A stretch of DNA of 64,000 bases from NCBI GenBank assembly GCA_036405675.1, contig DASWXD010000004.1:4766-68765 (forward strand), given 5' to 3'. Made by a program: the position numbers and the translations under genes. Every line of letters starts with the position of its first letter. The stretch's first letter is position 1. The DNA comes from Sediminibacterium sp. (lineage in GTDB: Bacteria > Bacteroidota > Bacteroidia > Chitinophagales > Chitinophagaceae). Shown piece after piece: positions 8,153-62,692 of the stretch. The notes beneath the pieces were generated by a model. That model was not told where the DNA came from. It searched no databases and was given only the letters and a program-made list of their open reading frames with translations.

Positions 8153-8521
8153 ATGATCACTGTTGTCAAACACTGCCTTACCTGCCAGGCAGCCCTGCAT
8201 GGCAGAACCGACAAAAAATTCTGCAACGATTATTGCCGTAACACCCATCACAACACCTTACATAGTGATAGCAACAACTGTATGCGCAGCATCAACTACA
8301 ACCTTCGCAGAAACCGGCATATCCTCGAAAATCTGCTACCAGCTACCAAACCCCTTACCAGGATCTCACGCGAGTTATTACAGCGAAAAGGTTTCAGCTT
8401 TCACTATTTCACCCACCAGTTACCCAACCGGAAAGGGCATCCTGTTTTTTTCTGTTATGATTATGGGTATCGGGTATTGGGGAAGGAGTGGGTGATGGTG
8501 GTGCGGGGAAGGAATGATTGA
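8153..8521 (+). CDS. Hypothetical protein with N-terminal Zn-ribbon (DUF2116-like)
   Basis: CLTC...GRTDKKFCNDYCR, then NxxLRRNRxIL and FxFHYFTH...FCYDYGY. Confidence 0.75.
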   Translation: MITVVKHCLTCQAALHGRTDKKFCNDYCRNTHHNTLHSDSNNCMRSINYNLRRNRHILENLLPATKPLTRISRELLQRKGFSFHYFTHQLPNRKGHPVFFCYDYGYRVLGKEWVMVVRGRND

Positions 8522-8672
8522 ACAGATGAACAGACGAGCAAGGAACAGAAGAACAGATGAATTGGTTGATATAAGTGAGACAGGGAGTTACACAGATAAC
8601 GATAGCTATTTTCTATAAATGAACATGTTCGTCAGTTCCTTGTTCATCGGTTCGTCTGTTCATCTGTTCAAT
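8517..8672. repeat. Inverted repeat of tandem GAACAGAN octamers (family A, copy 1)
   Basis: Left arm ttGAACAGAT GAACAGAC GAGCAAG GAACAGAA GAACAGAT; right arm 8635-8672 is a reverse-complement array; the outer 22 bp pair perfectly. Confidence 0.9.
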
Positions 8673-9048
8673 ACCTGATCCGCACCCTCACCACCCCCGC
8701 ATTCACCATATCGATTTTTTTGGCGGCGCTTCTGGTGAGGTCGATGATGCGGCCAGCCACAAAAGGGCCACGGTCGTTGATACGTACTTTTACGGATTTG
8801 CCGTTAGAGAGATTGGTCACTTTTACCCTGGTACCAAAGGGAAGTTTTTTGTGCGCAGCCGTTAATTTAGAGGAGTTATAGATCTCTCCGTTGGCTGTTT
8901 TACGGCCATTATAACTTTCTGCATAAAAAGAAGCCATACCGGTTTCTGTTCCGCTAACTTCTGCAGAAGAAGCAGGCACCTGTTTGCGGTGACAGGAACA
9001 GACCAGTAATAACAAAACCGGAAGCAGGGTCAGCATTCTTTTCATCAT
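8668..9048 (-). CDS. rlpA: Septal ring lytic transglycosylase RlpA family lipoprotein
   Basis: Lipobox-like VCSC; [35 protein letters not shown]. Confidence 0.92.
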
Positions 9049-9125
9049 GTTACAAATCTACCCAGCGGGGTTCTCAGTCAAAACTTATTATTATCAACAA
9101 ATACAAAACAGTGTTAATAACAGTC

Positions 9126-9158
9126 AAAAAAAAACCGCCAGCCGTAATGGCTGGCGGT
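9126..9158 (-). terminator. Intrinsic terminator downstream of gcvT
   Basis: 10-bp stem ACCGCCAGCC/GGCTGGCGGT, 5-nt loop, 9 U on the minus strand. Confidence 0.85.
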
Positions 9159-9181
9159 GATATACTATTCTGAATTACCTT

Positions 9182-10352: not shown

Positions 10353-10369
10353 CTCAACTGCATCCCTCA

Positions 10370-10853: not shown

Positions 10854-10893
10854 GGTTAGTAATTAATAATTAATAGTTAATAGTTACTAGTTG
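10854..10893. repeat. Single arm of tandem AGTTAAT-type heptamers (family C)
   Basis: GGTTAGT AATTAAT AATTAAT AGTTAAT AGTTACT AGTT. Confidence 0.7.
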
Positions 10894-10901
10894 GGGGATG
10901 T

Positions 10902-11288
10902 TTAGTCTACGGTGAGGCGGCGTTTGATGCCTTCGCCGAGTTGTTTGATGCGGAAATAGGAATCGTAATCATTTTCCGTTTTATTGAACTGGATCAGGAG
11001 TTTGCCGGGACTGATCTTGATATGAAAATGGGTACGGTCTTCGAGGGTCAGGTCTGCGTCTACCCTTCTTTTGCGGAACAGCTCGTTCTTGAGTTCTTTG
11101 CGCAGGTACTGGTGCACCCTTTCGGCTTTGTAACTGGCATAACTTGCATACAAACGATACGTGTCATCCGATTCTTTTACACGAACAGATACGCCATTGC
11201 GGTTACTGAACCCGTATTGCACCGCCTGCAAAAAACCGACGATACATAACACAGATATAATCACCAGGGCAATCACAAACTTTTTCAT
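10902..11288 (-). CDS. Hypothetical membrane-anchored protein
   Basis: MKKFVIALVIISVLCIVGFL N-terminal TM segment; ATG at 11288. Confidence 0.7.
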   Translation of the reverse strand: MKKFVIALVIISVLCIVGFLQAVQYGFSNRNGVSVRVKESDDTYRLYASYASYKAERVHQYLRKELKNELFRKRRVDADLTLEDRTHFHIKISPGKLLIQFNKTENDYDSYFRIKQLGEGIKRRLTVD

Positions 11289-11331
11289 AGAACAGGTTTT
11301 ACAGGTGGATAGTATGTTTTTTTGCGATTTT

Positions 11332-12159
11332 TTAGCGGAATGCCGGTGCCACACAATACGCATGACTGGAACCACAGACCACAAATACTTTTTCTCCCTT
11401 AGCTGTCAGCTCTTTTACAGCGGCCACTAATTGCTGATTACGCAGATCGTTCGAAAAAGCCATCAGGGGTGCCAGAAAACCGGGCAGGGTGTGTTCATCA
11501 GATACTTCGCGCCAGTCCGGACCGGAAGGGAAATATTTTTTCCAGTACCTATCTACATCAGCAACGTTTTTGATACTGTCCTGCAGGTTCACATAAGCGG
11601 CGCGTTTGAGATATTCCTCTACAAAATTTTCCGGTGAAGCGGGTTTGCCAAAACGGAGATTACTGAAATAAGGATTCAGGATCTGTTGTAAAGCGATCTG
11701 GTCTTTTGTAAATTTTTCCCCTTCCAGCTGTTGGGCCAGCGCTTCTTTGGAAAGATCCCAGTTATAGATCCTGATCCCATCGCGGTGAGCAAGGTGTTTA
11801 ACCGCTCCGCCCTCGCCCAGCGTTTTTACCGGATCCATCAATCCCGGAAATAAAAATCCCAATCTCCCTTCTACCAGTGCCACCGTGGGTTGCAAGCGTT
11901 TCCATTCCGCTTCCATTTGTTTGATCTCAGGTGCATCGGGGTTGCGTGTATGGGCGGCACCGAATATGACCAGACCGGGTTGGGTAACGATCATCGGTCT
12001 TGGATGTTCACCGGTATAACTGCCGAATAAAACAATACTGTCCGAAGGGTTATAGGCTTTTTGCGGAAGATAATACGCGGGTGATTTCCAGGATACGAGG
12101 TACCCAATGGCTAGCAGTATCACCAGTAATAAAAGCAGTCTCGGAAAATATTTTTTCAT
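11332..12159 (-). CDS. Hypothetical exported protein, possibly TraB/GumN (TIKI/EreA/ChaN-like) superfamily
   Basis: N-terminal TM; FGAAH, ALVEG, RNQQL, VVCGSSHA motif spacing; ATG at 12159. Confidence 0.6.
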   Translation of the reverse strand: MKKYFPRLLLLLVILLAIGYLVSWKSPAYYLPQKAYNPSDSIVLFGSYTGEHPRPMIVTQPGLVIFGAAHTRNPDAPEIKQMEAEWKRLQPTVALVEGRLGFLFPGLMDPVKTLGEGGAVKHLAHRDGIRIYNWDLSKEALAQQLEGEKFTKDQIALQQILNPYFSNLRFGKPASPENFVEEYLKRAAYVNLQDSIKNVADVDRYWKKYFPSGPDWREVSDEHTLPGFLAPLMAFSNDLRNQQLVAAVKELTAKGEKVFVVCGSSHAYCVAPAFR

Positions 12160-15336: not shown

Positions 15337-15487
15337 GTTTTTTTCAAGTAATAGGTAGCGGACAATAACTGGCTTACTATAAATTATTGATTTACAGATG
15401 GATATGAAAAATTCAAAAAATATCGAAATGGTAGACGGTTCTATTTATTGATGAGTGGCGGCAGTCTAAAAATCTCAAAAAATATTT

Positions 15488-15549
15488 ATCGTATTTGTAC
15501 GATTAATCAGAAAATCTTCTTTTCTTTGTTCTATCGTACAAAAACGATA
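15488..15549. promoter_or_regulatory. Two ATCGT-N6-ACGAT palindromes, candidate ArsR operators
   Basis: ATCGTatttgtACGAT at 15488-15503 and TATCGTacaaaaACGATA at 15532-15549, just before the arsR ATG. Confidence 0.65.
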
Positions 15550-15554
15550 AACCA

Positions 15555-15890
15555 ATGGCATCCGCTAAAACAGAGATATTTACACAGGAAGATCAGGACC
15601 TGGCAGCCATCGCCAAAGTGCTTTCGCACCCGGCCCGTGTTGCCATTTTAAAGATCCTTGCCGCGCAAAACGCTTGTATCTGCGGCGAGATCGTAGACAT
15701 ATTACCCCTGGCACAATCCACCGTTTCGCAGCATTTAAAAGAATTAAAGAACGCCGGCCTCATTAAAGGAACCATCGACGGACCCAAAAGCTGTTACTGC
15801 ATCAACCGCGAAGCATTTGAAAAACTGCACGGGGTCTTTGACTCTCTTTTTACATCGCTGAAAACGGATAACGCCACCAACTGTTGTTAA
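15555..15890 (+). CDS. arsR: ArsR/SmtB family repressor
   Basis: LSHPARVAIL, ACICGEI, AQSTVSQHLKELK, C-terminal CC. Confidence 0.93.
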   Translation: MASAKTEIFTQEDQDLAAIAKVLSHPARVAILKILAAQNACICGEIVDILPLAQSTVSQHLKELKNAGLIKGTIDGPKSCYCINREAFEKLHGVFDSLFTSLKTDNATNCC

Positions 15891-16830: not shown

Positions 16831-16878
16831 CGCCTTAGCGCCTTTACGGGAAAATTTTCCCGCAAAGGCGCTAAGGCG
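16831..16878. repeat. 48-bp near-perfect palindrome with AAAGGCGC/TAAGGCG octamer arms (family G)
   Basis: CGCCTTAGCGCCTTT-a-CGGGAAAA|TTTTCCCG-c-AAAGGCGCTAAGGCG, one mismatch, between arsM and arsN. Confidence 0.85.
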
Positions 16879-19508: not shown

Positions 19509-19540
19509 ATGGATCTTTTGAAAGGTTAAGTTACCATTTA

Positions 19541-19626
19541 AATATCGAATATCGAACAGGGAACACCGAATATCGATCGGAGCGTTACTTCGGCGTTCGA
19601 TATTCCCTGTTCGATATTCGATATTC
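19541..19626. repeat. Inverted repeat of tandem AATATCG/AACAGGG heptamers (family B, copy 1)
   Basis: AATATCG AATATCG AACAGGG AACACCG AATATCG ... CGATATT CCCTGTT CGATATT CGATATT. Confidence 0.92.
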
Positions 19627-19633
19627 AAAATTC

Positions 19634-20914
19634 CTACACCACTACCACTTCATAAAACGAATCCGGCTCCAGGTAATGCTGGGCAAGGGCCTGGATCTCT
19701 TCGGCGGTGATGGTTTGTACGGTTTTAATGCTGTTGTAGAAATATTCTTCGGTCAGGCCGTTCAGGATATAATTCTTCCAGCGGGCAATGATCTGGAACG
19801 GGCCATCCAGGTCTCCGAGCAGGGAGCCGATCATGTAATTGCGTACCAGGTCCAGTTCTTCTGCTTCTACGGGTTCATTGCGCAGGATCGCCATTTCTTT
19901 GTACACTTCTTCAATGGTAGCAGCGCATACATCCCGCCCCGCTTCGGTGCTGATCATCCAGGCGCTGGTATGGATATGGTTCTGCATATAACTATGTATG
20001 CCGTAGGTATACCCTTTGTCTTCGCGGATATTACTCATCAGTCTGGATCCGAAAAAACCACCGAAAATATTATTCAGCACCTGTGCCTTTGAAAAATCAG
20101 GATGATGCCTGTTAGGGAAGGGCCGCGCAATACGGATCGCTCCCTGTACACCATTCTCATCATTGATGATATTGTATTTTTTGGTCTCTGCCGGGTGCGT
20201 GTTAAAGTTTACCGCAGGCAGGTTTTGTGGCTGAAAAGGCAGGTGTCCGAAATTGGTATTCAATTGTTGCTGAATATCCCCAGGCAATTTACCTGCCACG
20301 AATACCAGGCATTTACCCCCCGTATAAAATTTCCGGTAAAAAGCATCCAGCTCATCGCGCTGCAGGTTATCGTAATCCAGTGTAGACGTATATTTTCCGT
20401 AGGGATGATGAAACCCATAAACATATTCATCAATCAACCGGTTAGCAATGAAGTCGCATTTCTTCAGGTTCACTTCCAGTCTTTGTTTCTGGTTCTGCTT
20501 ATAAATCGCCAATTCTTCTTCGGGGAAAATACATTCCGTCATCAACTCTGCTACCACCGGCAACAGTTCCGGTAAATGTTTACTGAGGCAATGCAGGGTA
20601 ATAGTGGCTGTTTCATTATAACAGCTCCTGTTCAGGTATGCACCATAAAAATCAAAATGCTCATTTATAGTAAAGGCTTTTTTCTGCCGGGTACCATTCT
20701 TGAGCATGAAGTTGGTGGTGGCAGCTACAATATTTTTTTCTTCGTACCAGTTCCCCGCATAAAACACCCATTCTACCAGTATCACTTCCTGTGCTCCCGC
20801 ATCTATGCTGTACACAGGTACTCCATTATCGAGGGTGTACTGTTCGTAGGGTGGTAACTGCAATTGCATATTAACCGCATCAATGATCTCCGGCGCACTT
20901 GTTCTGTTGGTCAT
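19634..20914 (-). CDS. M16 (pitrilysin-like) peptidase, non-catalytic subunit
   Basis: No HxxEH; has FGSRLMSNIREDKGYTYGI of the M16 C-domain. Confidence 0.88.
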   Translation of the reverse strand: MTNRTSAPEIIDAVNMQLQLPPYEQYTLDNGVPVYSIDAGAQEVILVEWVFYAGNWYEEKNIVAATTNFMLKNGTRQKKAFTINEHFDFYGAYLNRSCYNETATITLHCLSKHLPELLPVVAELMTECIFPEEELAIYKQNQKQRLEVNLKKCDFIANRLIDEYVYGFHHPYGKYTSTLDYDNLQRDELDAFYRKFYTGGKCLVFVAGKLPGDIQQQLNTNFGHLPFQPQNLPAVNFNTHPAETKKYNIINDENGVQGAIRIARPFPNRHHPDFSKAQVLNNIFGGFFGSRLMSNIREDKGYTYGIHSYMQNHIHTSAWMISTEAGRDVCAATIEEVYKEMAILRNEPVEAEELDLVRNYMIGSLLGDLDGPFQIIARWKNYILNGLTEEYFYNSIKTVQTITAEEIQALAQHYLEPDSFYEVVVV

Positions 20915-22155: not shown

Positions 22156-22220
22156 ACACACGATTAAAGAAGCTGCAAAATAGGGGATTCGGGAAAACTG
22201 GAACTACGAAAAGAGGAAAA

Positions 22221-22322
22221 TGAACAGAGGAACAGATGAACAGACGAACAAGGAACGGATGAACGGAGAGATTGATTTATTACATTACTTCCGATCATCT
22301 GTTCATCTGTTCCTCTGTTCAA
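22221..22322. repeat. Inverted repeat of tandem GAACAGAN octamers (family A, copy 2)
   Basis: GAACAGAG GAACAGAT GAACAGAC GAACAAG GAACGGAT GAACGGAG ... ATCTGTTC ATCTGTTC CTCTGTTC. Confidence 0.9.
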
Positions 22323-22334: not shown

Positions 22335-23525
22335 CTACCGCCTGATATCTTTGATATCAATCGTAAGCACCAGGGGTTTCTGGTCGCGGAAGATGACTAC
22401 GCGCATTTTGCCGATGCTGTTCTGGAAGAGGTTTTTGTAGGTCTGGATGTTCTTGGAAACATTGGTTTCTACAGAAAAGATCACATCACCCGGCAGAAAA
22501 CCGGCTTTGTCTCCGGGCGAGCCCGGCATGATATCAATTACCCTGATTTCTCCATCCACCAGGTAAATACCCAGACCGGTATAGGAATAATCGAAGCTTT
22601 CGTTGTAATGCGTATTGGGTTTGATATGGATACTCTGCTCCGGATAGTTCAGGATCACGTTAAAACGGCGCAGGATATCATTGCCGATCAGTCCACCGAG
22701 TAAAGGATACGAAGTAACATTGTATTCATCTTCAAAAATATGTATCGGCACCCGCTTGAACTTGTAAGGGCCCAGCTTCACTTCCTTGACCACCGAAATA
22801 GACATCTGCCGTTTGCCCCCCAGCCCTTCTGCCTGTGTAGGATAAAATTTCCGTTTCTTACGGAATACCACACTATCATCCACAAAATCTTTGGATAACA
22901 GAAAACTGAGTCCCGCACCGGTATCAAAAATAAATCGGCTCACAATCAGCCTGTCGTCCTGTATCGCGGCAGACTGCAACGGAAGCGTAGAGAAATTAGG
23001 TTTCAGCATATAACCGCCGCGGGGATATTTGAAGGAACCCGGCGAATACACTTCGATAAACATGTTATCATAATCCAGTCTTACGATATACCTGCGCAGA
23101 AAGCTGTAGCCGATAATACCGTCGATACGGATCCCGTATACACTGGTCAGCAATTCATAGTCATTGATATGAAAATCGAGCTTTTCTACTTCCAGTGTGC
23201 CCAGTTTCAGGGTATGCCCCATGGTAAAATCCACGTTTTTGATACCTGCGATGCCACGGATGGTCTTTTCTGTTTTTACAGTGGGCAGTTTCAGCAAATC
23301 TACCGTAGTAGAATCCAGGGAAATACCGCCGCTTCCGGTATCAAAAACGAAATTGAGTGTATCGGGATAATTGTCGAGAACGGCCCGAACGATCACGATG
23401 CCGCCGCTTAGCTGGGTAAAGGAGAATCTGGTCAATAGTTTTGCCTCCGGAGAAACAAATTCCTCCTGCGCTTTGCCGCTGATACTAAGGCAAAACATGG
23501 CAAATGCAATTAAGACCGGTTTCAT
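22335..23525 (-). CDS. Aspartyl protease family protein with C-terminal PDZ domain
   Basis: Signal peptide; two retropepsin motifs FVFDTGS and FIFDTGA; PDZ GLGI...GSPGDKAG. Confidence 0.88.
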   Translation of the reverse strand: MKPVLIAFAMFCLSISGKAQEEFVSPEAKLLTRFSFTQLSGGIVIVRAVLDNYPDTLNFVFDTGSGGISLDSTTVDLLKLPTVKTEKTIRGIAGIKNVDFTMGHTLKLGTLEVEKLDFHINDYELLTSVYGIRIDGIIGYSFLRRYIVRLDYDNMFIEVYSPGSFKYPRGGYMLKPNFSTLPLQSAAIQDDRLIVSRFIFDTGAGLSFLLSKDFVDDSVVFRKKRKFYPTQAEGLGGKRQMSISVVKEVKLGPYKFKRVPIHIFEDEYNVTSYPLLGGLIGNDILRRFNVILNYPEQSIHIKPNTHYNESFDYSYTGLGIYLVDGEIRVIDIMPGSPGDKAGFLPGDVIFSVETNVSKNIQTYKNLFQNSIGKMRVVIFRDQKPLVLTIDIKDIRR

Positions 23526-27950: not shown

Positions 27951-28490
27951 ATGAACCTACCTGTCTGCCTCTCCGTATTAGGTGTGATCAGCCTCACCCA
28001 AACCTCTTTTAAAAAAATCCCGCCAGACAAACGATTTACCACACCCGGCACTTATTATGTACGGGTAGAAAAACGTAAATATGTTTTGCATTTGTTTGAT
28101 TCCAGCGGAGAAAGAATTGTCAGCTATCCCGTTGTATTCGGCAACAAAGATCTGGGTGATAAAATGATGCAGGGCGACCGCAAAACGCCCGAAGGCATCT
28201 TTCATATCAGTTCCAAACGCCGGCACGAGAAATGGAATGCTTTTCTCTTGATCGATTATCCCAATGCAGACAGCTACCGGAAATTCAATGAACGAAAAGC
28301 CAAAGGATTACTGCCTGCCAATGCACAGATCGGCGGTGGCATTGGTATACACGGCACCTGGCCACGCGAGGATTTTGCCATCGATCAATACCAGAACTGG
28401 ACCGAAGGATGCATCAGCACCAAGAACATGTATATCCAGGAAATTTTTGGGTTATTACCGGTAGGGACGAGGGTGGAAATAACGCCGTAG
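27951..28490 (+). CDS. L,D-transpeptidase (YkuD) family protein
   Basis: GDRKTPEG, IDYPN, IGIHGT...NWTEGCI. Confidence 0.9.
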   Translation: MNLPVCLSVLGVISLTQTSFKKIPPDKRFTTPGTYYVRVEKRKYVLHLFDSSGERIVSYPVVFGNKDLGDKMMQGDRKTPEGIFHISSKRRHEKWNAFLLIDYPNADSYRKFNERKAKGLLPANAQIGGGIGIHGTWPREDFAIDQYQNWTEGCISTKNMYIQEIFGLLPVGTRVEITP

Positions 28491-28578
28491 GAATGTCGAA
28501 TATCGAACAGGGAATATCGAATGTCGAAGTAATATCCGATCGACATTCGATATTCCCTGTTCGATATTCTGCTGTTCC
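28491..28578. repeat. Inverted repeat of tandem AATATCG/AACAGGG/AATGTCG heptamers (family B, copy 2)
   Basis: Fills the gap between two convergent TAG stops: AATGTCG AATATCG AACAGGG AATATCG AATGTCG ... CGACATT CGATATT CCCTGTT CGATATT. Confidence 0.92.
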
Positions 28579-29847
28579 CTAGATTTTCTCCGCCCCGAAA
28601 TAACTATGCAGCACCGCCGGCAATTGGATGCCTTCTGTTGTCTGGTTATTCTCGAGCAGGCAGGCCACAATTCTGGGCAGGGCCAGTGAACTTCCGTTTA
28701 GTGAATGGGTGAGCTGCATTTTACCATCGGCATCTTTGTAACGGCATTTCATGCGGTTGGTCTGGTAGCTTTCAAAATTGCTCACACTGCTCACTTCCAG
28801 CCAGCGTTCCTGTGCGGCGCTGAATACTTCAAAGTCGTAGGTGATGGCACTCGTAAAACCCATATCGCCCCCGCATAAACGCAGGATGCGGTAAGGCAGC
28901 TGTAAAGATTGCAACAGTTTTTCTACATGGTTCACCATTTCATCCAGCACAGCATAACTGGTAGCCGGCTCCACAATCTGGATGATCTCCACTTTCTCGA
29001 ACTGGTGAACACGGTTCAGTCCGCGTACATCTTTTCCAAAACTGCCCGCTTCTCTTCTGAAGCAAGGTGAGTAAGCGGTCATCTTAACAGGCAGTTCCTC
29101 CAGTTTCAAGATGGTATCGCGGTAAATATTGGTTACGGGCACTTCGGCCGTAGGGATCAGGTAAAAATTATCGGCCGTAGCATGGTACATCTGCCCTTCT
29201 TTATCCGGTAACTGTCCGGTGGCAAATGCACTGGCTTCGTTTACCATAAACGGTGGCAGGTATTCGGTGTAACCGGCTGCTGTGTTAAAGTCGAGGAAAT
29301 ACTGTACCAGGGCGCGTTGTAATTTGGCGCCTTTGCCTTTGTACAACGGAAACCCGCTTCCGGTAATTTTGGCACCGGTTTCAAAATCTACCAGGTCGTA
29401 TTGTTTGATCAGGTCCCAATGCGGTACGGATCCTTCGTGTAATACAGGTTTTTGTCCCCCCTCTCTCACCACCACATTCTCTTCCGGCGATTTGCCCTCG
29501 GGTACCTGTTCAGAAGGCAGGTTGGGTAACAATACAATTGTATCCAGCAGTTCTTTTTCAACAACGGCCATTTGTTCTTTCAGGGGTTCCAGTGTGGCTT
29601 TCCAGCTGGCTACATCGGCTTTCAGGGCTTCGGCTCCTTCTTTATTCCCCTGGCCCATCAGTTTCCCGATCTCTTTGGATGCACTGTTTACTTTGGCCTG
29701 GGTACCATCAAAATCGGCCTGCAGTTTTTTCCGGGTATCATCCAGGGCAATGATCGTATCTACCAGTTCCGGCTGTTTAAAATGTTTCACAGCCAGTCTT
29801 TTTTTAACCTCAGCTGTATTGTTGCGCAATACACTCACTTGTAACAT
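28579..29847 (-). CDS. serS: Serine--tRNA ligase
   Basis: LIPTAEVP, FRREAGSFGKDVRGLNRVHQFEKVE, EVSSVSN, LNGSSLA; TATCTTTG promoter at 29872-29865. Confidence 0.98.
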   Translation of the reverse strand: MLQVSVLRNNTAEVKKRLAVKHFKQPELVDTIIALDDTRKKLQADFDGTQAKVNSASKEIGKLMGQGNKEGAEALKADVASWKATLEPLKEQMAVVEKELLDTIVLLPNLPSEQVPEGKSPEENVVVREGGQKPVLHEGSVPHWDLIKQYDLVDFETGAKITGSGFPLYKGKGAKLQRALVQYFLDFNTAAGYTEYLPPFMVNEASAFATGQLPDKEGQMYHATADNFYLIPTAEVPVTNIYRDTILKLEELPVKMTAYSPCFRREAGSFGKDVRGLNRVHQFEKVEIIQIVEPATSYAVLDEMVNHVEKLLQSLQLPYRILRLCGGDMGFTSAITYDFEVFSAAQERWLEVSSVSNFESYQTNRMKCRYKDADGKMQLTHSLNGSSLALPRIVACLLENNQTTEGIQLPAVLHSYFGAEKI

Positions 29848-29924
29848 AAGGGTCCAATTTGCCGCAAAGATAACTTTTGCCGGTTGATGATGGCATGCTT
29901 CCACGGTTTACCTTTGCGGTAATT

Positions 29925-30269: not shown

Positions 30270-30379
30270 GAGTTAATAGTTAAAAGTCTATAGTTAATAG
30301 TGGGAAGCAGGTAAAGTGTATGTACTTCAACCTGCCCGTTTTTCCCTTTTAACTATTAACTTTTCACTCTTTAAACTCC
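30270..30379. repeat. Inverted repeat of AGTTAAT-type heptamers around an inner hairpin (family C)
   Basis: AGTTAAT AGTTAAA AGTCTAT AGTTAAT ... TTTAACT ATTAACT TTTCACT; inner GCAGGT/ACCTGC stem. Confidence 0.8.
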
Positions 30380-36970: not shown

Positions 36971-37036
36971 CGTGAGCGGTAAGTAGTGAGCAGTGAGTCA
37001 TTCTTTTCCAACTCACTGCTCACCACTCACTACTAC
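36971..37036. repeat. Inverted repeat of NGTGAGY heptamers (family D, copy 1) inside the cco operon
   Basis: CGTGAGC GGTAAGT AGTGAGC AGTGAGT - 12 nt - ACTCACT GCTCACC ACTCACT. Confidence 0.9.
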
Positions 37037-43410: not shown

Positions 43411-44442
43411 ATGCCTTATTTCAACTGGAACGATAGTATTAATTTTTTTAACAAACTAAGTGTCCGCAGGCTGTGGAATGCCGCAAAAGTGTACAGCAGC
43501 TACCAGCTTACCAAACTTACCGGCAAGCCTATCCAGTGGGGGTATCCTATTTCTATCTCTTTTGAACCAACTACTTCCTGTAATCTGCGCTGTCCCGAAT
43601 GTCCGAGCGGCTTACGGGCTTTTACCCGCCCTACCGGGATGCTGGAGAATAGTTTTTTCAGGCAAACCATCGACGATATTTACAAAGACCTGCTGTACCT
43701 GATCTTTTATTTCCAGGGCGAACCTTACCTGAACCCGGATTTCCTCACCATGGTAAAGTATGCGCATGACAAGGGGATCTATACGGCCACTTCCACCAAT
43801 GCCCATTACCTGACCGATGAAAAAGCAAAACAAACTGTAGAAAGCGGCCTTGACCGGCTGATCATTTCCATAGATGGAACCACCCAGGATGTGTACCAGC
43901 AATACCGCGTTGGCGGTAAGCTGGATAAAGTGCTGGAAGGAGCCCGGAATATTGTAAAGTGGAAAAAAGAACTGAACAGTAAAACACCTTTCGTTTTCTT
44001 CCAGTTCCTGGTAGTAAAACCCAATGAACACCAGATAGAAGAGATCAAACGCCTGGGCAAAGAGATCGGGGTAGACCAGGTGCGGTTTAAAACTGCACAG
44101 GTATATGATTACGAGAATGATCCCCACCAGCTGATCCCCACTATCCAGAAATACAGCCGTTATAAAAAAGATGCCAGCGGAAAAATGAACGTAAAAAGCG
44201 GCCTCAGCAACCATTGCTGGAAGCTCTGGCATGCCAATGTGATTACCTGGGATGGACTGGTGGTACCCTGCTGTTTTGATAAAGATGCCACCCACCAGCT
44301 GGGGAATCTGCAGACACAAAGCTTTAAAGAAACCTGGCATAACGATAATTACCGCCAGTTCCGCCGCGAACTGCTCACCAGCCGCAAGAACATAGATATC
44401 TGTGCCAATTGCAGCGAGGGACTGACGGTGTGGGAGTCGTGA
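43411..44442 (+). CDS. Radical SAM protein with SPASM/Twitch domain
   Basis: CNLRCPEC, FYFQGEPYLN, STNA; C-terminal CWKLW...PCCFD...CANC. Confidence 0.9.
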   Translation: MPYFNWNDSINFFNKLSVRRLWNAAKVYSSYQLTKLTGKPIQWGYPISISFEPTTSCNLRCPECPSGLRAFTRPTGMLENSFFRQTIDDIYKDLLYLIFYFQGEPYLNPDFLTMVKYAHDKGIYTATSTNAHYLTDEKAKQTVESGLDRLIISIDGTTQDVYQQYRVGGKLDKVLEGARNIVKWKKELNSKTPFVFFQFLVVKPNEHQIEEIKRLGKEIGVDQVRFKTAQVYDYENDPHQLIPTIQKYSRYKKDASGKMNVKSGLSNHCWKLWHANVITWDGLVVPCCFDKDATHQLGNLQTQSFKETWHNDNYRQFRRELLTSRKNIDICANCSEGLTVWES

Positions 44443-44539
44443 GGCGTGAATCGTGAGTAGTCAGTAGTAAGTAGGTGGAAATGGATAAACGCTCCTTACT
44501 AACGTCTCACGACTGACGACTGACGACTCACGATTCACC
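44438..44539. repeat. Inverted repeat of CGTGAGT/CGTCAGT heptamers (family D, copy 2)
   Basis: CGTGAGG CGTGAAT CGTGAGT AGTCAGT AGTAAGT ... TCTCACG ACTGACG ACTGACG ACTCACG ATTCACC; first unit contains the TGA stop. Confidence 0.9.
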
Positions 44540-44563
44540 CGATACCCTTATTTTTACAAAACC

Positions 44564-46604: not shown

Positions 46605-47075
46605 TTATACCCATTTCCCGAAGTGCCGTTCCACGGCTACAAATCGATGATCGAAGATTTGTTTCAGCTGGGCTTTTACCATAAGTAACCAGGCAAGATC
46701 TCCCAGCAACCAGAGGGGTAATTTGTAATGCACGATATCCGTCATTTCTACCCCACCTTCGATTTCTCTGAAATGATGCTGGTGATGCCATAGGCTGTAA
46801 GGACCAAAACGCTGTTCATCCACAAAATATTTTTTATCCTCCACGTGAGTGATCTCCGTCATCCAATACAGGGGAATGCCCAGGATGGGCTTTACGGTGT
46901 ATTCAATGATCTGCCCGGGATACATTTTTTCGCCATGGTGTTTGGAGATGATATGAAACCCCAGGTTGGGTGGTGTAATATCTTTCAGGTTATCCGGGCG
47001 GCTGAAAAATTCCCAGGCCTGGTCTAAACTGATCGGGATTTTTTGAACGGTTTTGATGGAGTAGACTTTTGACAT
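46605..47075 (-). CDS. SRPBCC family protein
   Basis: WEFFSRPDNLKDITP, YFVDEQRFGPYSLWHHQH. Confidence 0.9.
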   Translation of the reverse strand: MSKVYSIKTVQKIPISLDQAWEFFSRPDNLKDITPPNLGFHIISKHHGEKMYPGQIIEYTVKPILGIPLYWMTEITHVEDKKYFVDEQRFGPYSLWHHQHHFREIEGGVEMTDIVHYKLPLWLLGDLAWLLMVKAQLKQIFDHRFVAVERHFGKWV

Positions 47076-47105: not shown

Positions 47106-47232
47106 TCAACTCACCCCGACGGCACTTCGTGCGTCGACCCTCTCTACTGCGTAGAGAGGGTGGGACTCTCCCCCTACCCCTCTCTGCTCTGCAGAGAGGG
47201 GTGACGAGCGAAGCGATGTCGGGGTGAGTTGA
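47106..47232. mobile_element. 127-bp nested palindromic element (MITE/REP-like, non-autonomous)
   Basis: 15-bp perfect terminal inverted repeats TCAACTCACCCCGAC/GTCGGGGTGAGTTGA enclosing two CCCTCTCT...AGAGAGGG hairpins. Confidence 0.65.
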
Positions 47233-54734: not shown

Positions 54735-54836
54735 CAGGCGGATTTGTTTATTGTTCGGCCTGATTTCCCGCTTCGGCGGAAACAATCGAACTAATAAACG
54801 TTTTGAAGTGCTCTACACATACCACCTTCCAAAGCG
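54735..54836 (+). ncRNA. SAM-II-like riboswitch with long inserted hairpin (SAM-II long-loop type)
   Basis: GGCG-GAUUUG-[hairpin with C-UUCG-G]-CGUUUUGAAG-UGCU-loop-CUUCCAAAGCG can fold as an H-type pseudoknot; sits upstream of metH. Confidence 0.62.
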
Positions 54837-59619: not shown

Positions 59620-60351
59620 TTATCGGCTTTCCAATAACCACCATAATCTTTTCCTGGGTTTTACTTTGAAGTTTTTGGCGATATAGGCACCGATATACTG
59701 CATGGCTTCATCAATATCATCTGTTAACAGGATCAAATCTTTATCCTTGGCCGAGATGGTTCCCTTTTCAACCATGGTATCAATGGCTTCCATCAGCGGC
59801 ATAAAATACTCTTTGCCATATAACACGATCGGGAAATTGGTGATGACGCGGGTCTGGATCAGGGTGATGGTTTCAAACATTTCATCCATGGTACCATAAC
59901 CGCCGGGCAGAATCACAAACGCGTACGAATACTTTACCAGCAATACTTTCCGGATAAAGAAATAATCGAAAGTGATCCACTTCTGCATATAAGGATTGGG
60001 ATGCTGCTCAAAAGGAAGTTTGATATTGCAGCCCACCGATTGGCCTCCATTCTCAAAAGCACCGCGGTTGGCGGCTTCCATAATACCGGGACCACCACCC
60101 GTCATAGTAGTAAACCCCATGGCCGCAATCCGCTTGCCAAATTCACGGGCCGCTTCATAATAGGCATGCCCCTCCTTAAACCGGGCCGACCCAAATACGG
60201 TAATACAGGGCCCAAGAAAATGCAGGTTACGAAACCCGTATATCATTTGCCGGAACACATTCCAGGCAAAGAAAAATTCATTGATCCGCGGTTTGGGCCC
60301 ATCCAGGTAAACCGATTCTTTGGCAGGTATGATCCGTTCAGATTTTTCCAT
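59620..60351 (-). CDS. LOG family (TIGR00730) Rossmann-fold protein
   Basis: TVFGSARF, TGGGPGIMEAANRGA, PGGYGTMDE. Confidence 0.93.
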   Translation of the reverse strand: MEKSERIIPAKESVYLDGPKPRINEFFFAWNVFRQMIYGFRNLHFLGPCITVFGSARFKEGHAYYEAAREFGKRIAAMGFTTMTGGGPGIMEAANRGAFENGGQSVGCNIKLPFEQHPNPYMQKWITFDYFFIRKVLLVKYSYAFVILPGGYGTMDEMFETITLIQTRVITNFPIVLYGKEYFMPLMEAIDTMVEKGTISAKDKDLILLTDDIDEAMQYIGAYIAKNFKVKPRKRLWWLLESR

Positions 60352-60435
60352 GATCTATGCTTATATTCATCAATAATTCAGATTAGCATACATTTTGCTG
60401 TAGTAAAGATAACGCTGTCTAACTGCTTTATACTT

Positions 60436-61821
60436 ATGAGAAAAATAATCACCTGCCTGCTATTCCTGCTTGCCGCACAAACCGTTCCGGCCCAGCAGAA
60501 GATAGTGCTTGAAAATCTTCGTCTCTACAACCTCAACGAACCGATACTCCGCTACCTGCAAAGCCCTGATATCAAGCAAACCATTGTCACAGACCTGAAT
60601 CAGTTACTCGGTAAAAAAATGAACGGGCAGCTTACCAACACCAGCGATCTGCCTGTTGAACTGCTTGATTTTAATTTTGTTGTGCCGGTCATCAAACCTG
60701 TTTTCGCTGATCCGGATCCCAACCTGCTTCATCTGTATCTTGATTTCATTGAAGCCGATCCTTTCTTTTTTTTCAGGTATGACAAAGAGAATGAGATTGA
60801 CAGCCTTACACAAAAGCGGGTAAAAACAGTTTTTATACTGAAAGCGCATATATACAGCTCAGACCAAAAACTAATACGAACAGAAATGCTGAACGTATTG
60901 ATCAGTGCGGCCGAAACACCGGGCATAGGCAACCTGTATAACCTGGGCATCCGGTTCACAGACCTAACGGTAACCTCAAAAACTTTTACCGAACTATTCA
61001 AAAAAAGCACTTCGTTATTACTGGATACAGCCAACAATCTTGCTGCTATTGAAGTAAAACTACAACCGGCTTATCTGGCCGATAACTATCTCCTACCAAA
61101 AACCCTTAACCGGACAAGAACTTTTGTCAGCACCCAAAAGAACATCAGTTCTTACCTGTTGGGAAAACAGTCAGAAATGATCCGTATGGGTGAACCTTTG
61201 TATGAAGAGATCCTGCTGAAAGGGAAAAAAGCACAAAAATATCCGGACCAGATCACCGCTGCTATCAAAGCCACACAAAACTTTTCAAAGTCTGATTATG
61301 TATTTCTCCGCCAGGAAGGAAGAGATGTGTTAAGAGATAAGAATTACCTGATCAAACTCTGCACGCAGGTAGACCCAACTGATATTCCCGAGAACCGGAA
61401 CCTGCTCTTCACCCGTTTTCTCCCTGGCAATTTTCATTACCTGTTACAGGAAAAAGATACAGTGGCGCAGTTTTCTATTCTGAAAGAAGTCACAGAAAAA
61501 ACCAATAAAATCTATCCCAATATCGTTACCAATGGGTACGATAGTACTGGTTTTTCTACTTTACCGGCTTTGGGCAGTCGTAAGACAGAATGGGAAGTGG
61601 TGTATCGCTACATAATCAATGGTTCTCTGGCGGGCACGCCCTTCCGGATCAAATGCAGCGGTTTTGATAACAGCCTGCGGGAGTTCTTCCTCGCCGATCA
61701 ACTGGTCTGTATCGCACAGGGAAAATTTAACCCGGAAAAAATTGTGCTTTTTGATGCATCTTTATCCCCCGAAAAACTGAACCAGTTATTCCTGATCGGT
61801 TTTAATCGTTTCCTGGAATAA
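60436..61821 (+). CDS. Hypothetical exported protein
   Basis: MRKIITCLLFLLAAQTVPAQ signal peptide at 60436; the upstream ORF extension overlaps the LOG gene. Confidence 0.75.
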   Translation: MRKIITCLLFLLAAQTVPAQQKIVLENLRLYNLNEPILRYLQSPDIKQTIVTDLNQLLGKKMNGQLTNTSDLPVELLDFNFVVPVIKPVFADPDPNLLHLYLDFIEADPFFFFRYDKENEIDSLTQKRVKTVFILKAHIYSSDQKLIRTEMLNVLISAAETPGIGNLYNLGIRFTDLTVTSKTFTELFKKSTSLLLDTANNLAAIEVKLQPAYLADNYLLPKTLNRTRTFVSTQKNISSYLLGKQSEMIRMGEPLYEEILLKGKKAQKYPDQITAAIKATQNFSKSDYVFLRQEGRDVLRDKNYLIKLCTQVDPTDIPENRNLLFTRFLPGNFHYLLQEKDTVAQFSILKEVTEKTNKIYPNIVTNGYDSTGFSTLPALGSRKTEWEVVYRYIINGSLAGTPFRIKCSGFDNSLREFFLADQLVCIAQGKFNPEKIVLFDASLSPEKLNQLFLIGFNRFLE

Positions 61822-61835
61822 CACAAACTCTACCC

Positions 61836-62606
61836 ATGCGTATCATTTCCTATAATGTAAACGGCATCCGCGCCGCTATTAAAAAAGGTTTCACCGAATG
61901 GCTGCAGACAAACCCTGCTGATATTATCTGCCTGCAGGAAACCAAAGCCAGTAAAGAAGATGTGGACCTGACAGAACTGGAAGCACTGGGTTACCAGTCG
62001 TACTGGTTCTCTGCACAAAAAAAAGGATACAGTGGCGTTGCCATCTTTACAAAGATCAAACCCGACAATATTGAATACGGGCATGCCAAAGAACAAAGCG
62101 ATTTTGAAGGCAGGGTTATCCGTGCCGATTTTGGTGATATCACATTGATCAACGCCTATTATCCATCGGGTACAAGCGGAGATGAAAGACAGACCTACAA
62201 ATACCATTGGTTAGATGAATTTTTTGATTACCTGCAGGATCTGCGGAAAACAAGGAAAAAACTGATCGTAGTGGGCGATTATAATATTGCCCACACAGAA
62301 ATAGATATACATGATCCGAAAGGAAATAAGAAATCCTCTGGATTTTTACCAGAGGAAAGGGCATGGATGGATAAATTTCTGCAGCACGACTGGGTAGACA
62401 GTTTCCGCGAACTGAACCCCGGTGTTACAGGCGCTTATTCCTGGTGGAGCCAGCGTTTCCCCTCGGTACGTTTGCAGAATAAGGGATGGCGGATTGATTA
62501 TATCTGTGTAACCAAATCCCTGCAACCGCAACTGAAAGAGGCCAGAATCTACCCCGATGTAAAACACAGCGACCACTGCCCCATCTACGCAGAAATCAGT
62601 ATTTAA
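61836..62606 (+). CDS. xth: Exodeoxyribonuclease III
   Basis: ISYNVNGIRA, CLQETK, YSGVA, GDYNIAH, GWRIDY, SDHCP. Confidence 0.96.
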   Translation: MRIISYNVNGIRAAIKKGFTEWLQTNPADIICLQETKASKEDVDLTELEALGYQSYWFSAQKKGYSGVAIFTKIKPDNIEYGHAKEQSDFEGRVIRADFGDITLINAYYPSGTSGDERQTYKYHWLDEFFDYLQDLRKTRKKLIVVGDYNIAHTEIDIHDPKGNKKSSGFLPEERAWMDKFLQHDWVDSFRELNPGVTGAYSWWSQRFPSVRLQNKGWRIDYICVTKSLQPQLKEARIYPDVKHSDHCPIYAEISI

Positions 62607-62692
62607 TGAAAAATGAACAATTAAAAATTACCATTTCAGATAAACCACTACTACGTCAATTATTAATTTTTAATTGCTAATTTTTAATTACC
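62605..62692. repeat. Inverted repeat of AT-rich AATKAAA heptamers (family F)
   Basis: AATGAAA AATGAAC AATTAAA AATTACC ... AATTATT AATTTTT AATTGCT AATTTTT AATT. Confidence 0.7.

What the first reader, a model, noticed from the sequence alone, without database searches (positions are those of the whole stretch)
8517..62692. A sequence-diverse but structurally uniform class of intergenic palindromes built from tandem 7/8-bp units and anchored at stop codons
Seen: about ten elements (8517, 10854, 16831, 19541, 22221, 28491, 30270, 36971, 44438, 62605). Nine have a left arm of 2-5 tandem 7- or 8-mers, a unique spacer of variable length (none at 16831) and a reverse-complement right arm; 10854 is a single arm. 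The unit sequences belong to unrelated families (GAACAGAN, AATATCG, AGTTAAT, NGTGAGY, AATKAAA, AAAGGCGC). What is shared is the period, the inverted layout and the position: an arm usually begins in or within about 13 nt of a stop codon, some lie inside operons (ars, cco), and two fill whole gaps between convergent genes. Inference: one mechanism makes or spreads these elements regardless of unit sequence. They may be empty forms of small cassettes whose full versions carry a passenger gene (for example four-helix-bundle or GxxExxY-type ORFs) between the arms, or mRNA 3'-processing/stability stems. No cognate enzyme is encoded in the window.
Basis: partly seen in the sequence, partly recalled or inferred. 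Interest (0 to 1): 0.8.

Follow-up and report, generated by a model that had tools for sequence, protein, structure and literature searches.

The report
Heptamer-armed palindromes from four-helix-bundle cassettes
The ten intergenic palindromes are real, and they are gene-less copies of a widespread cassette (inverted runs of 7- or 8-base repeats framing a small four-helix-bundle gene) known so far only as the "intervening sequence" of 23S ribosomal RNA, which gives the unexplained bacterial heptamer repeats a candidate protein partner.

Summary
All ten elements exist as described. They belong to about 330-400 such hairpins in this 3.77-Mb Chitinophagaceae genome. Intergenic tandem repeats peak sharply at periods 7 and 8, and arms hold mostly 4-5 units. 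Stop-facing ends lie a median 6 nt from the stop codon; start-facing ends lie a median 46 nt from the gene start. Every unit family has one polarity, and 90 of 110 have the G-rich strand leading in from each flank.

Thirteen of the genome's 14 PF05635/TIGR02436 four-helix-bundle genes (S23p, Avd-like) sit between such inverted arrays and the fourteenth lies beside a complete hairpin, each with a different unit. The same framing holds for 31 of 38 such genes in relatives and 19 of 28 in other phyla. Congeners with background array density have no such genes (15 of 18). The layout matches the Coxiella 23S rRNA intervening sequence, which has GACAGAT heptamers and is cut by RNase III.

One arm string is letter-identical in at least 8 phyla, and its protein subfamily travels with it. 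Between strains, every indel of 5 nt or more is exactly one 7-nt unit inside an element.

Element 16831 belongs to a second subclass linked to a GxxExxY nuclease gene.

The parts
8517..8672 (.). GAACAGA-octamer palindrome (arms of about 37-45 nt, 70-nt spacer). It fills the convergent gap between ORF 8153-8521 (+) and the DPBB/RlpA-like gene 8668-9048 (-). Both TGA stops lie in the outermost units.
   Evidence: (I2, I14). RNA fold -58.1 kcal/mol, z -6.8. Loaded copy of this family with a PF05635 gene at G000 C46:47958-48525.
10854..10895 (.). Single-arm array, 5.4 x GTTAATA/AGTTAAT, 6 nt from the stop of ORF 10902-11384 (-). Probably a stub left by partial deletion of a palindrome.
   Evidence: No significant fold (z -1.1). 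An analogous deletion stub is seen at G000 C87:130928 against the sister species.
16831..16878 (.). Perfect 48-nt palindrome CGCCTTAGCGCCTTTACGGGAAAA/TTTTCCCGCAAAGGCGCTAAGGCG with no spacer and the pyrimidine-rich arm first. It lies between the ArsM-like methyltransferase and GNAT genes of the ars cluster. It belongs to the AAAGGCGC/AAAGGCAC subclass.
   Evidence: I11; z -8.4. About 19 family members. The loaded copy carries the GxxExxY PDDEXK_3 gene at G000 C129:318-671 with the arms in reverse order. Conserved in the sister species.
19537..19632 (.). AATATCG/AACAGGG heptamer palindrome ending 1-4 nt from the stop of the M16 peptidase gene 19634-20914 (-).
   Evidence: I3, I4; z -8.1. The centre is inverted relative to the sister species. 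The arm string is found in at least 8 phyla.
22200..22321 (.). GAACAGA-octamer palindrome 13 nt downstream of the aspartyl-protease/PDZ gene 22335-23525 (-). It is the only window element followed by a U-rich run on the sense strand.
   Evidence: I7; -50.7 kcal/mol, z -10.5.
28491..28578 (.). AATATCG/AACAGGG palindrome with 30-nt perfect arms, filling the whole gap between the YkuD transpeptidase TAG (28488-28490) and the serS TAG (28579-28581).
   Evidence: I5; z -10.8. Identical in the roughly 91%-identical sister species. Absent downstream of serS in 18 congeners, many of which have a canonical terminator there. Short-read contigs break at this element.
30270..30371 (.). AGTTAAT heptamer palindrome starting at the stop of ORF 29877-30269 (+), upstream of gcvH.
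   Evidence: I6, I22; z -5.0. One-unit (7-nt) indel in a 99% strain. Loaded family copy at G000 C87:135013-135492.
36971..37034 (.). GTGAGYR heptamer palindrome 2 nt after the ccoNO stop (37037), inside the cbb3 oxidase cluster between ccoNO and ccoP.
   Evidence: I17; z -7.6. Largest family in the genome (GAGTAGT/GAGTCGT, 45 hairpins). Loaded copy at G000 C107:18231-18736.
44438..44540 (.). GTGAGYR/GTGAATC heptamer palindrome overlapping the stop of the radical-SAM/SPASM gene (44440-44442), upstream of a MarR gene.
   Evidence: I10; z -5.8. Three strains differ by +7 or -7 nt in either arm.
62604..62692 (.). AATKAAA heptamer palindrome whose first unit holds the TAA stop of the Exo_endo_phos gene (62604-62606), upstream of a DUF4286 gene. 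The stem is AT-rich and weak.
   Evidence: I8; -10.1 kcal/mol, z -2.9. One-unit indel in two strains. Related loaded copy at G000 C117:7180-7676.

Best explanation
The elements are gene-less members of one class of foldback cassette. A cassette has two inverted arms, each usually 4-5 tandem units of 7 or 8 nt, with the G-rich, C-poor strand reading inward from either flank. The loaded form carries a PF05635/TIGR02436 four-helix-bundle gene (S23p, the fold family of the DGR protein Avd) in the loop. This is the same architecture as the ORF-bearing intervening sequence (IVS) of 23S rRNA.

Shown here:
- Nearly every such gene is framed this way, in this genome, in relatives and in other phyla.
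- Protein subfamily and unit type travel together, even across phyla.
- The class has expanded in this lineage together with the gene family.
- Arms change by whole-unit slippage. Loops flip, accept nested elements and evolve fastest. Whole hairpins are duplicated or deleted.

Inferred:
- The S23p homopentamer recognises its own repeat units and promotes copying or maintenance of the arms. Gene-less copies would then be non-autonomous.
- Transcripts fold into 20-45-bp stems (-38 to -58 kcal/mol) that RNase III would cut, as it cuts the IVS. The elements would therefore act as 3'-end or intercistronic processing and stability stems rather than classical terminators.
- Tight packing against stop codons would reflect insertion at, or growth up to, gene ends. 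Stop-rich G/A/T arms would end any reading frame that runs in.

The catalytic route of spread is unknown. The confidence given is for the identity of the class (gene-less members of the PF05635/IVS-type cassette). Each inferred functional step is less certain, at roughly 0.3-0.4.
For: Abundance and geometry:
- Sharp excess of period-7/8 intergenic arrays and of periodic hairpins.
- Stop-codon packing: median 6 nt at stop-facing ends against 46 nt at start-facing ends. Periodic hairpins occupy 17.7% of convergent gaps, 9% of tandem gaps and 7% of divergent gaps.
- Polarity: every family has a single polarity, and 90 of 110 families have G>C in the 5' arm.
- Units per arm peak at 4 (210 arrays) and 5 (142).

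Link to PF05635:
- 13 of the 14 genes in G000 lie between inverted arrays of different unit families and one lies beside a hairpin.
- 31 of 38 such genes are framed this way in other Chitinophagales, and 19 of 28 by a strict cut in Desulfobacterota, Methylomirabilota, Planctomycetota, Gemmatimonadota, Kiritimatiellota and Bacteroidota.
- 15 of 18 congeners have no such gene and show background array density. Gene density against array density gives rho 0.79, p 0.007, n=10.
- 15 of 16 cross-phylum genomes that carry the AATATCG element have 3-16 copies of the gene.
- Protein identity tracks arm similarity (permutation p 0.0015, n=59).
- The C46-like subfamily is 46-64% identical across phyla, against a family mean of 27%, and has GAAYAnn-type arms wherever found.

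Dispersal and dynamics:
- A 23-nt arm string is exact in more than 110 stretches from at least 8 phyla (about 0.02 expected by chance).
- All indels of 5 nt or more between 98-99% strains are 7 nt long and lie inside elements.
- Flip, deletion stub, tandem triplication and nesting are seen against the sister species.

Literature:
- The Coxiella IVS carries an S23p ORF, has 2-3 GACAGAT heptamers whose number varies between strains, and is excised by RNase III (PMC4990558).
- PF05635 resembles Avd (PMC10053308).
- The G000 proteins match the pentameric protein of PDB 2GSC.
Against: - No catalytic protein is linked to the elements. The genome has no reverse transcriptase, and its three RAYT-like genes have their own unrelated REPs.
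- Loops of gene-less copies hold no remnant of an S23p gene, so they are not simple deletion derivatives.
- Arms are no better conserved than other intergenic DNA against the sister species (88.2% against 88.1%).
- Stem mismatches show no excess of G.U over A.C on the sense strand (99 against 112). There is therefore no sign of selection on the sense RNA fold in particular.
- Canonical terminators are not depleted.
- The AATATCG family has no loaded copy in this genome.
- No copy was found in viral, phage or plasmid collections, so the vehicle of cross-phylum spread is unknown.
- The protein/arm co-variation would also follow from simple co-inheritance.
Confidence: 0.68

Rival explanations
1. 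The arrays are neutral by-products. Polymerase slippage makes heptamer and octamer simple-sequence repeats, and template switching within a strand turns them into palindromes. PF05635 and GxxExxY genes would be passive cargo that lands or survives best in hairpin loops. No protein-repeat partnership would exist.
For: Unit-wise +7/-7 indels dominate differences between strains. Arms evolve like other intergenic DNA. There are no S23p remnants in empty loops. Loops do accept unrelated nested elements. Heptamer SSRs are the commonest long SSR class in many prokaryotes and have been ascribed to slippage (Mrazek 2007, as cited in PMC4679880).
Against: Slippage alone does not explain four observations: the 23-nt higher-order arm string identical in at least 8 phyla, the conserved unit order within families, the universal polarity rule, and protein subfamilies keeping the same unit type across phyla. 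Congeners of similar G+C content and genome size (for example G017) lack both the arrays and the gene.
Confidence: 0.15
2. They are locally evolved, factor-independent transcription terminators or attenuators without U tracts. Each would have arisen in place, and the periodicity would be incidental.
For: All sit just past stop codons and are enriched in convergent gaps. The stems are very stable. Congeners carry canonical terminators at the serS site that the element occupies here.
Against: Several lie inside operons (ars, cco). Only 20 of 396 gene ends followed by a periodic array also show a GC stem plus T tract, and canonical terminators are not depleted. The same sequences recur at many loci and across phyla. 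Loaded copies carry a gene in the loop.
Confidence: 0.07
3. They are REP/BIME-type elements mobilised by REP-associated tyrosine transposases (RAYTs).
For: They are intergenic palindromes near gene ends, in multiple families, sometimes tandemly clustered. The genome encodes three Y1_Tnp proteins.
Against: Each RAYT-like gene is flanked by its own short GC-rich REP hairpin (GAACCCCAGCTTTTAAGCTGGGGTT, AGTCGCTCGGCTCTGCCGAGTGACT, TTGTTGGTCGCCTGACCAACAA), unrelated to any 7/8-mer family. About 110 unit variants cannot be served by three RAYTs. The arms are tandem arrays, not single conserved REP stems.
Confidence: 0.03
4. They are G-quadruplex or other non-B DNA regulatory sites, as proposed for the GGGAATC arrays of Xanthomonas.
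For: They share the positional rule of those arrays: G-rich strand on the coding strand within 50 nt of the stop, about 4 units, convergent pairs (PMC4692102).
Against: The window units (GAACAGA, AATATCG, AGTTAAT, GTGAGTA, AATGAAA) have no G runs and cannot form quadruplexes. The paired layout predicts hairpins.
Confidence: 0.02

Closest known systems
ORF-bearing intervening sequences (IVS) of 23S rRNA (Leptospira, Coxiella burnetii, Brucella, Haemophilus; PMC4990558)
   Same: A long inverted-repeat stem encloses an S23p/PF05635 four-helix-bundle ORF. Tandem heptamers lie in the stem region (GACAGAT in Coxiella, against GAACAGAT here), and their number varies between strains. Distribution is sporadic, and horizontal spread is suspected.
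   Different: The IVS sits in helix 25 or 45 of 23S rRNA and is a single copy. Here there are hundreds of copies, mostly gene-less, at the 3' ends of protein genes and inside operons. RNase III cleavage is shown for the IVS and only inferred here. The assembly has no 23S rRNA gene, so an IVS could not be looked for.
Heptameric simple-sequence repeats: Xanthomonas GGGAATC and Nostoc GGGGAYT arrays (PMC4692102), cyanobacterial STRR (recalled from memory: Mazel 1990), LSSR (Mrazek 2007, cited in PMC4679880), TAACTGA repeats (PMC4679880)
   Same: Tandem 7-nt units in intergenic DNA, with a preferred length of about 4 units. The G-rich strand lies on the coding strand within 50 nt of the stop codon or overlapping it. 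Convergent (inverted) pairs are frequent in Xanthomonas. The same heptamer is shared by distant phyla (TAACTGA).
   Different: Those reports treat one unit per genome and read it as a G-quadruplex, a slippage product or a 5'-UTR protein site. None that I could search links the arrays to PF05635 or to the IVS. Here there are about 110 unit variants in one genome, mostly unable to form quadruplexes, and most are paired as hairpins.
REP/BIME elements with RAYT transposases; REPINs (PMC3116915)
   Same: Short intergenic palindromes in many copies near gene ends, sometimes in clusters, with a single-copy protein gene flanked by its own repeats.
   Different: REPs are single conserved stems of 20-40 nt with a Y1 transposase as partner. 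Here the arms are tandem arrays, the partner is a non-enzymatic four-helix bundle, and the genome's RAYTs have separate REPs.
Foldback (FB) transposons of eukaryotes (recalled from memory)
   Same: The inverted arms are themselves built of short tandem subrepeats. Loops vary, and only some copies carry a gene in the loop.
   Different: FB elements are kilobases long and eukaryotic, and their loaded copies encode transposase-type proteins. No homology is implied.
Integron attC sites and gene cassettes (recalled from memory)
   Same: Imperfect palindromes that are diverse in sequence but uniform in structure, placed right after the stop codons of small cassette genes. The GxxExxY-linked subclass (16831) has the gene lying between two half hairpins, like a cassette boundary.
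   Different: The arms show no RYYYAAC/GTTRRRY core sites. The elements do not form cassette arrays. The tandem-unit construction is foreign to attC. An integrase was not searched for.

Membership tests
PF05635/IVS-type heptamer-armed cassette | Two inverted arms that can form a long stem | tested here: met
   Nine of ten window elements. 329 periodic hairpins genome-wide.
PF05635/IVS-type heptamer-armed cassette | Arms built of tandem units of 7 nt (or 8 nt) whose number varies between strains | tested here: met
   TRF periods 7 and 8. All indels of 5 nt or more between strains are exactly 7 nt and lie inside elements. Coxiella precedent: PMC4990558.
PF05635/IVS-type heptamer-armed cassette | S23p (PF05635/TIGR02436) ORF in the loop | tested here: not met
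   None of the ten window elements holds an ORF, so they are gene-less forms. Loaded copies of five of the six unit families exist elsewhere in the genome (C46, C87, C107, C117 with PF05635; C129 with PF13366). A loaded copy of the sixth lies in L135.
PF05635/IVS-type heptamer-armed cassette | Location in helix 25 or 45 of 23S rRNA (classical IVS) | tested here: not met
   All window elements lie between protein genes. The assembly has no 23S rRNA gene.
PF05635/IVS-type heptamer-armed cassette | Excision or cleavage of the stem by RNase III | not testable with these tools
The only basis is the analogy with PMC4990558.
Heptameric SSR arrays of the Xanthomonas/Nostoc type | Tandem heptamers, about 4 units, G-rich strand on the coding strand within 50 nt of the stop, convergent pairs | tested here: met
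   compared with PMC4692102.
Heptameric SSR arrays of the Xanthomonas/Nostoc type | Four or more G runs able to form a G-quadruplex | tested here: not met
   The unit sequences read have no GGG runs.
REP/BIME with RAYT | A RAYT (Y1_Tnp) gene flanked by copies of the same repeat | tested here: not met
   The three Y1_Tnp genes are each flanked by other, GC-rich REP hairpins.
Rho-independent terminator | GC-rich stem of 5-14 bp followed directly by a U tract | tested here: not met
   Reading the flanks, only 22200-22321 is followed directly by a U-rich run. Genome-wide, 20 of 396 gene ends followed by a periodic array also fit a GC stem plus T tract.
MITE | Terminal inverted repeats plus target-site duplication, and a related autonomous transposase element | tested here: inconclusive
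   No duplication is visible at the one presence/absence site seen, which looks like a deletion with a stub. No transposase is associated. No clean insertion site was found in about 80 kb of sister-species sequence or about 36 kb of strain comparison.
Rfam RNA families | Match to a curated covariance model | tested here: not met
   No hit at gathering score in the window. Only sub-threshold generic hairpin (miRNA) hits on cross-phylum copies.

The most novel reading that the evidence does not exclude
PF05635 four-helix-bundle pentamers would be sequence-specific partners of the 7/8-nt repeat arrays, with roughly one unit per subunit; arms peak at 4-5 units. Each protein subfamily would have its own unit. 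Together they would form a pan-bacterial mobile or self-renewing element that needs no nuclease, recombinase or reverse transcriptase of its own. The classical rRNA intervening sequences, cyanobacterial STRR, the Xanthomonas GGGAATC arrays and the hundreds of stop-codon-anchored hairpins here would all be manifestations of it. A second, parallel system would use GxxExxY PD-(D/E)XK nucleases with oppositely arranged arms.
Probability: 0.25. Interest if true: 0.85.

Novelty: new variant of a known kind. Interest (0 to 1): 0.66.

Why it matters
Heptanucleotide repeats have been catalogued in bacteria since about 1990, and rRNA intervening sequences with their S23p ORF have been known equally long. 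Both remain unexplained, and the papers I could search treat them as separate topics. This genome shows them as one system at large scale: about 13% of gene ends carry such a hairpin. It also supplies testable handles:
- protein subfamilies matched to repeat units;
- a family whose arm sequence is identical across phyla;
- a clean contrast with congeners that lack both the gene and the repeats.

If the protein does recognise its repeats, this would define a new kind of protein-repeat element. It would give a function to a large orphan family related to the DGR factor Avd. It would also explain a common cause of assembly breaks and of unit-wise hypervariability at gene ends in many phyla.

Tried and rejected
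- Rfam: nothing at gathering score in the window, and only generic hairpin hits below threshold on cross-phylum copies.
- Vehicles of spread: the exact arm string is absent from IMG/VR contigs, and blastn against phage and plasmid collections found nothing. The low-complexity filter may hide weak matches.
- RAYT/REP explanation: rejected.
- Reverse transcriptase or DGR route: no RVT_1 match in the genome.
- IVS in the organism's own 23S rRNA: the assembly has no LSU gene.
- Replacement of canonical terminators: not supported. G000 has 11.8% canonical-like gene ends against 7.7% in G017.
- Selection on the sense RNA fold, tested by G.U against A.C mismatches: symmetric, no support.
- Arms under stronger constraint than other intergenic DNA: not supported. 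The 100% identity of the 28491 element is an anecdote.
- Gene-less copies as deletion derivatives that retain S23p fragments: no tblastn hit in 125 loops.
- Fixed insertion offset from the stop codon: the distribution is broad, from -5 to +9 nt, with no single target position.
- Stop codons as the full explanation of polarity: only partial. Stops occur in all three frames in 36% of 5' arms against 19% of 3' arms, and stop-less units obey the rule too.
- Literature searches for the arm strings and for heptamer, IVS and Bacteroidetes terminator terms returned only the papers cited. The Elhai 2008 paper on small dispersed repeats could not be fetched.

Full report
**1. The observation**

Inverted-repeat and tandem-repeat scans recover all ten elements at the stated coordinates. 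Nine are palindromes whose arms are runs of 7- or 8-nt units. Element 10854-10895 is a single array.

Folded as RNA, eight give -30 to -58 kcal/mol with z-scores from -5.0 to -10.8. The AT-rich element at 62604 is weak (z -2.9), and the single arm does not fold (z -1.1).

Every element starts or ends 0-13 nt from a stop codon or overlaps one. Elements 8517 and 28491 fill whole convergent gaps, and at 8517 both TGA stops lie in the outermost units.

Pfam scans of the flanking genes confirm the operon claims. Element 16831 lies between an ArsM-like methyltransferase and GNAT/Acr3/ArsC genes. Element 36971 lies between ccoNO and ccoP.

**2. It is a genome-wide class**

The window is C4:4766-68765 of a 3.77-Mb, 136-contig assembly with 45% G+C.
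- Intergenic TRF arrays number 599 at period 7, 386 at period 8 and 227 at period 14, against 1-52 at periods 5, 6 and 9-13. Coding arrays peak at periods 6, 9 and 12.
- Of 1214 merged arrays, about 45% have an inverted partner within 250 nt, against 5% with a direct partner.
- A repeat-blind hairpin scan finds 533 strong intergenic hairpin loci, and 326 of them have arms with best period 7 or 8.
- Periodic hairpins occupy 17.7% of convergent gaps, 9% of tandem gaps and 7% of divergent gaps.
- Stop-facing ends lie a median 6 nt from the stop. Start-facing ends lie a median 46 nt from the start.
- A periodic array follows 12.7% of all gene ends, against 0-5% in sampled relatives.
- Arms hold mostly 4 units (210 arrays) or 5 units (142).

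**3. A polarity rule**

Each of the 110 unit variants occurs in one polarity only (for example 29:0, 22:0, 16:0). In 90 of the 110 the 5' arm has more G than C. Overall the 5' arms are A 33%, G 27%, T 30% and C 10%. Because the elements are palindromes, the G-rich, C-poor strand is what a gene reads when running in from either side.

Stop codons explain part of this. Stops occur in all three frames in 36% of 5' arms against 19% of 3' arms. Units without any stop triplet obey the rule too.

The same rule was reported for the Xanthomonas GGGAATC arrays (PMC4692102).

**4. Families are dispersed copies, not local slippage products**

Copies share the order of variant units (AATATCG-AATATCG-AACAGGG-AATRTCG; GAACAGA...GAACAAG), while their loops are unrelated. 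Arms are often composites of several unit types. GAACAGA and AATATCG are both GAAnnnn variants that occur together.

They come from Bacteroidota, Desulfobacterota, Planctomycetota, Gemmatimonadota, Methylomirabilota, Kiritimatiellota, Sumerlaeota and a Pseudomonadota MAG. In every case it is the 5' arm of a hairpin. About 0.02 hits are expected by chance.

Of 91 such copies outside this lineage, 66 face a gene's stop codon. In 30 of those 66 the stop lies within 40 nt; for start-facing copies the figure is 3 of 25.

**5. The loaded form**

A search for inverted arrays 250-6000 nt apart turned up small ORFs packed between matching arms. These are PF05635/TIGR02436 four-helix-bundle proteins, and they match the pentameric Xanthomonas protein of PDB 2GSC.

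Thirteen of the 14 PF05635 genes in the genome lie between inverted 7/8-mer arrays, and one lies beside a complete hairpin. Each has a different unit: GAGCTNN, GGTAATTG, GTGAGTC, GTGAATG, AATTAGN, GGTTTATT, CGGATTNG, AGTTAAA, AATTTGA, AATGAGTG, GAACAGA or TAAGTNG. These include the most abundant gene-less families.

The framing holds elsewhere:
- 31 of 38 PF05635 genes in other Chitinophagales;
- 19 of 28, by a strict cut, in six other phyla, including a 67% G+C Methylomirabilota genome.

**6. Gene and repeats go together**
- Fifteen of 18 congeners have no PF05635 gene, and the sampled ones have background array density: 3-7 arrays per 100 kb at each of periods 7 and 8, against 20 and 13.5 here.
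- Across ten genomes, gene density and array density correlate (rho 0.79, p 0.007).
- Fifteen of 16 cross-phylum genomes that carry the AATATCG element have 3-16 such genes, against 1 of 14 control genomes.
- Across 59 loaded elements, protein identity tracks arm similarity (permutation p 0.0015).
- The protein in the GAACAGA-armed cassette (C46) is 64% identical to the one inside an AATATCG/AACAGGG-armed cassette of a Saprospiraceae MAG.
- Its 46-54%-identical relatives in Gemmatimonadales, Methylomirabilota, Phycisphaerae, Desulfobacteraceae and two Chitinophagaceae all have GAAYAnn-type arms. The family mean identity is 27%.

**7. Link to the known**

The Coxiella burnetii 23S rRNA intervening sequence is a 428-nt element in helix 45. 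It carries an S23p ORF and has two or three tandem GACAGAT heptamers whose number differs between strains. RNase III excises it, cutting at the start of the first repeat (PMC4990558). That matches the cassette described here, with nearly the same unit as the GAACAGAT of this genome. PF05635 is also the fold family of the DGR accessory protein Avd (PMC10053308).

Heptamer arrays near stop codons, with convergent pairs and about four units, were described in Xanthomonas and read as G-quadruplexes (PMC4692102). TAACTGA repeats shared by Beggiatoaceae, cyanobacteria and Bacteroidetes were left unexplained (PMC4679880). None of the papers my searches returned connects these arrays with PF05635 or the IVS.

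**8. Dynamics**

Two sister species about 91% identical keep the elements at the orthologous sites of 16831, 19541, 28491 and 30270. The centre of 19541 is inverted between species.

Other differences against the sister species:
- a deletion that leaves a 10-nt stub;
- indels of 42 nt (six units) and 14 nt (two units);
- a tandem triplication of a whole hairpin;
- a roughly 190-nt CTCTGTG/CACAGAG element nested in a loop in one species only.

Among 98-99.4%-identical strains, every indel of 5 nt or more across about 36 kb of the window is exactly 7 nt and lies inside elements 30270, 44438 or 62604. One nearby intergenic region has been remodelled by the CTCTGTG/CACAGAG element.

Against the sister species, identity is 88.2% in arms, 88.1% in other intergenic DNA, 91.9% in coding sequence and 80.6% in loops.

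**9. A second subclass**

Element 16831 belongs to the AAAGGCGC/AAAGGCAC family of about 19 hairpins, all with the pyrimidine-rich arm first. The genome's only GxxExxY (PF13366, PD-(D/E)XK) gene is framed by this family in the reverse order: AAAGGCG...gene...CGCCTTT. The gene thus appears to sit between two half hairpins. By the strict cut, 3 of 17 such genes in relatives are framed the same way, and several more weakly, by inverted arrays of about 8 nt.

**10. What it is not, and what is unknown**
- The three RAYT-like genes have their own REPs.
- The genome has no reverse transcriptase.
- There is no Rfam match.
- No copy was found in viral, phage or plasmid collections.
- Canonical terminators are not depleted.
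- Stem mismatches show no bias toward sense-strand G.U pairs.
- Empty loops hold no S23p remnants.
- The assembly has no 23S rRNA gene.
- Sequencing runs could not be consulted.

The identity of the class is therefore well supported. The role of the protein, the mechanism of spread and the function of the RNA are inferences.

**11. Earlier notes of this scan**

After I had reached the PF05635 link, a look-up showed that other agents had reported the same gene-plus-heptamer cassette in many other genomes. Two first-reader notes on this window (the octamer element at 8517, and the two AATATCG palindromes) agree with what I found. These notes are not independent evidence. One of them led me to the Xanthomonas paper.

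**12. Verdict**

Against the published record this is a new variant of known kinds (the rRNA IVS and heptamer SSR arrays), and the link that unifies them is not found in the literature I could search.

Noticed in passing
window 47106-47232: A 127-nt GC-rich nested palindrome (55-nt arms, 80% complementary, with two inner hairpins) between ORF 46605-47075 (-) and the UvrD-like gene. It has no 7/8-nt periodicity and belongs to a different class from the finding.
   Followed up: no
G000 C130:46745-47173, C36:1403-1933, C73:87764-88285 (L001-L003): Three RAYT-like Y1 transposase genes. Each is flanked by its own classical GC-rich REP hairpin, and C130 has three tandem copies downstream.
   Followed up: partly
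G000 C4:2784-3088 (about 1.7 kb upstream of the window), C24:2475-2767, C132:8426-8697; L108:2713-2966; L324:15880-16130: A roughly 200-230-nt element with CTCTGTG...CACAGAG arms (pyrimidine arm first) sits nested inside AATATCG palindromes. It is present or absent between 98%-identical strains and between sister species. Its unit type matches the arms around GxxExxY genes in relatives.
   Followed up: partly
G000 C38:11079-11250: A whole GAGCNNN-type hairpin is tandemly triplicated relative to the sister species (L120), giving a BIME-like cluster.
   Followed up: partly
L109, L120, L125, L145, L153, L181 (CALRMK02): A MAG labelled 'Caulobacter sp. UNC279MFTsu5.1' is about 91% identical in nucleotide sequence and syntenic to this Chitinophagaceae genome. 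The label looks wrong.
   Followed up: partly
window 1-64000, including 54735-54836: The Rfam gathering-level scan finds no family anywhere in the window. That includes the site where another first-reader note proposes a SAM-II-like riboswitch upstream of metH.
   Followed up: no
L095-L103 (Logan contigs): Nine short-read contigs that carry the YkuD gene end about 26-35 nt into the 28491 palindrome. These elements therefore break short-read assemblies, which may also explain the 136 contigs of this genome.
   Followed up: partly
G000 C108:3719-3892 and C44:1197-1466: A small GC hairpin (CCCGCCAAGGGCGGG or CCCGCCTTGGCGGG) is embedded inside AATATCG arrays at two loci.
   Followed up: no
window 15485-15551: A 30-nt-arm inverted repeat (80% complementary, 7-nt loop, not periodic) lies just upstream of ORF 15555-15890, ahead of the ars cluster. 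It may be an operator or a leader hairpin.
   Followed up: no
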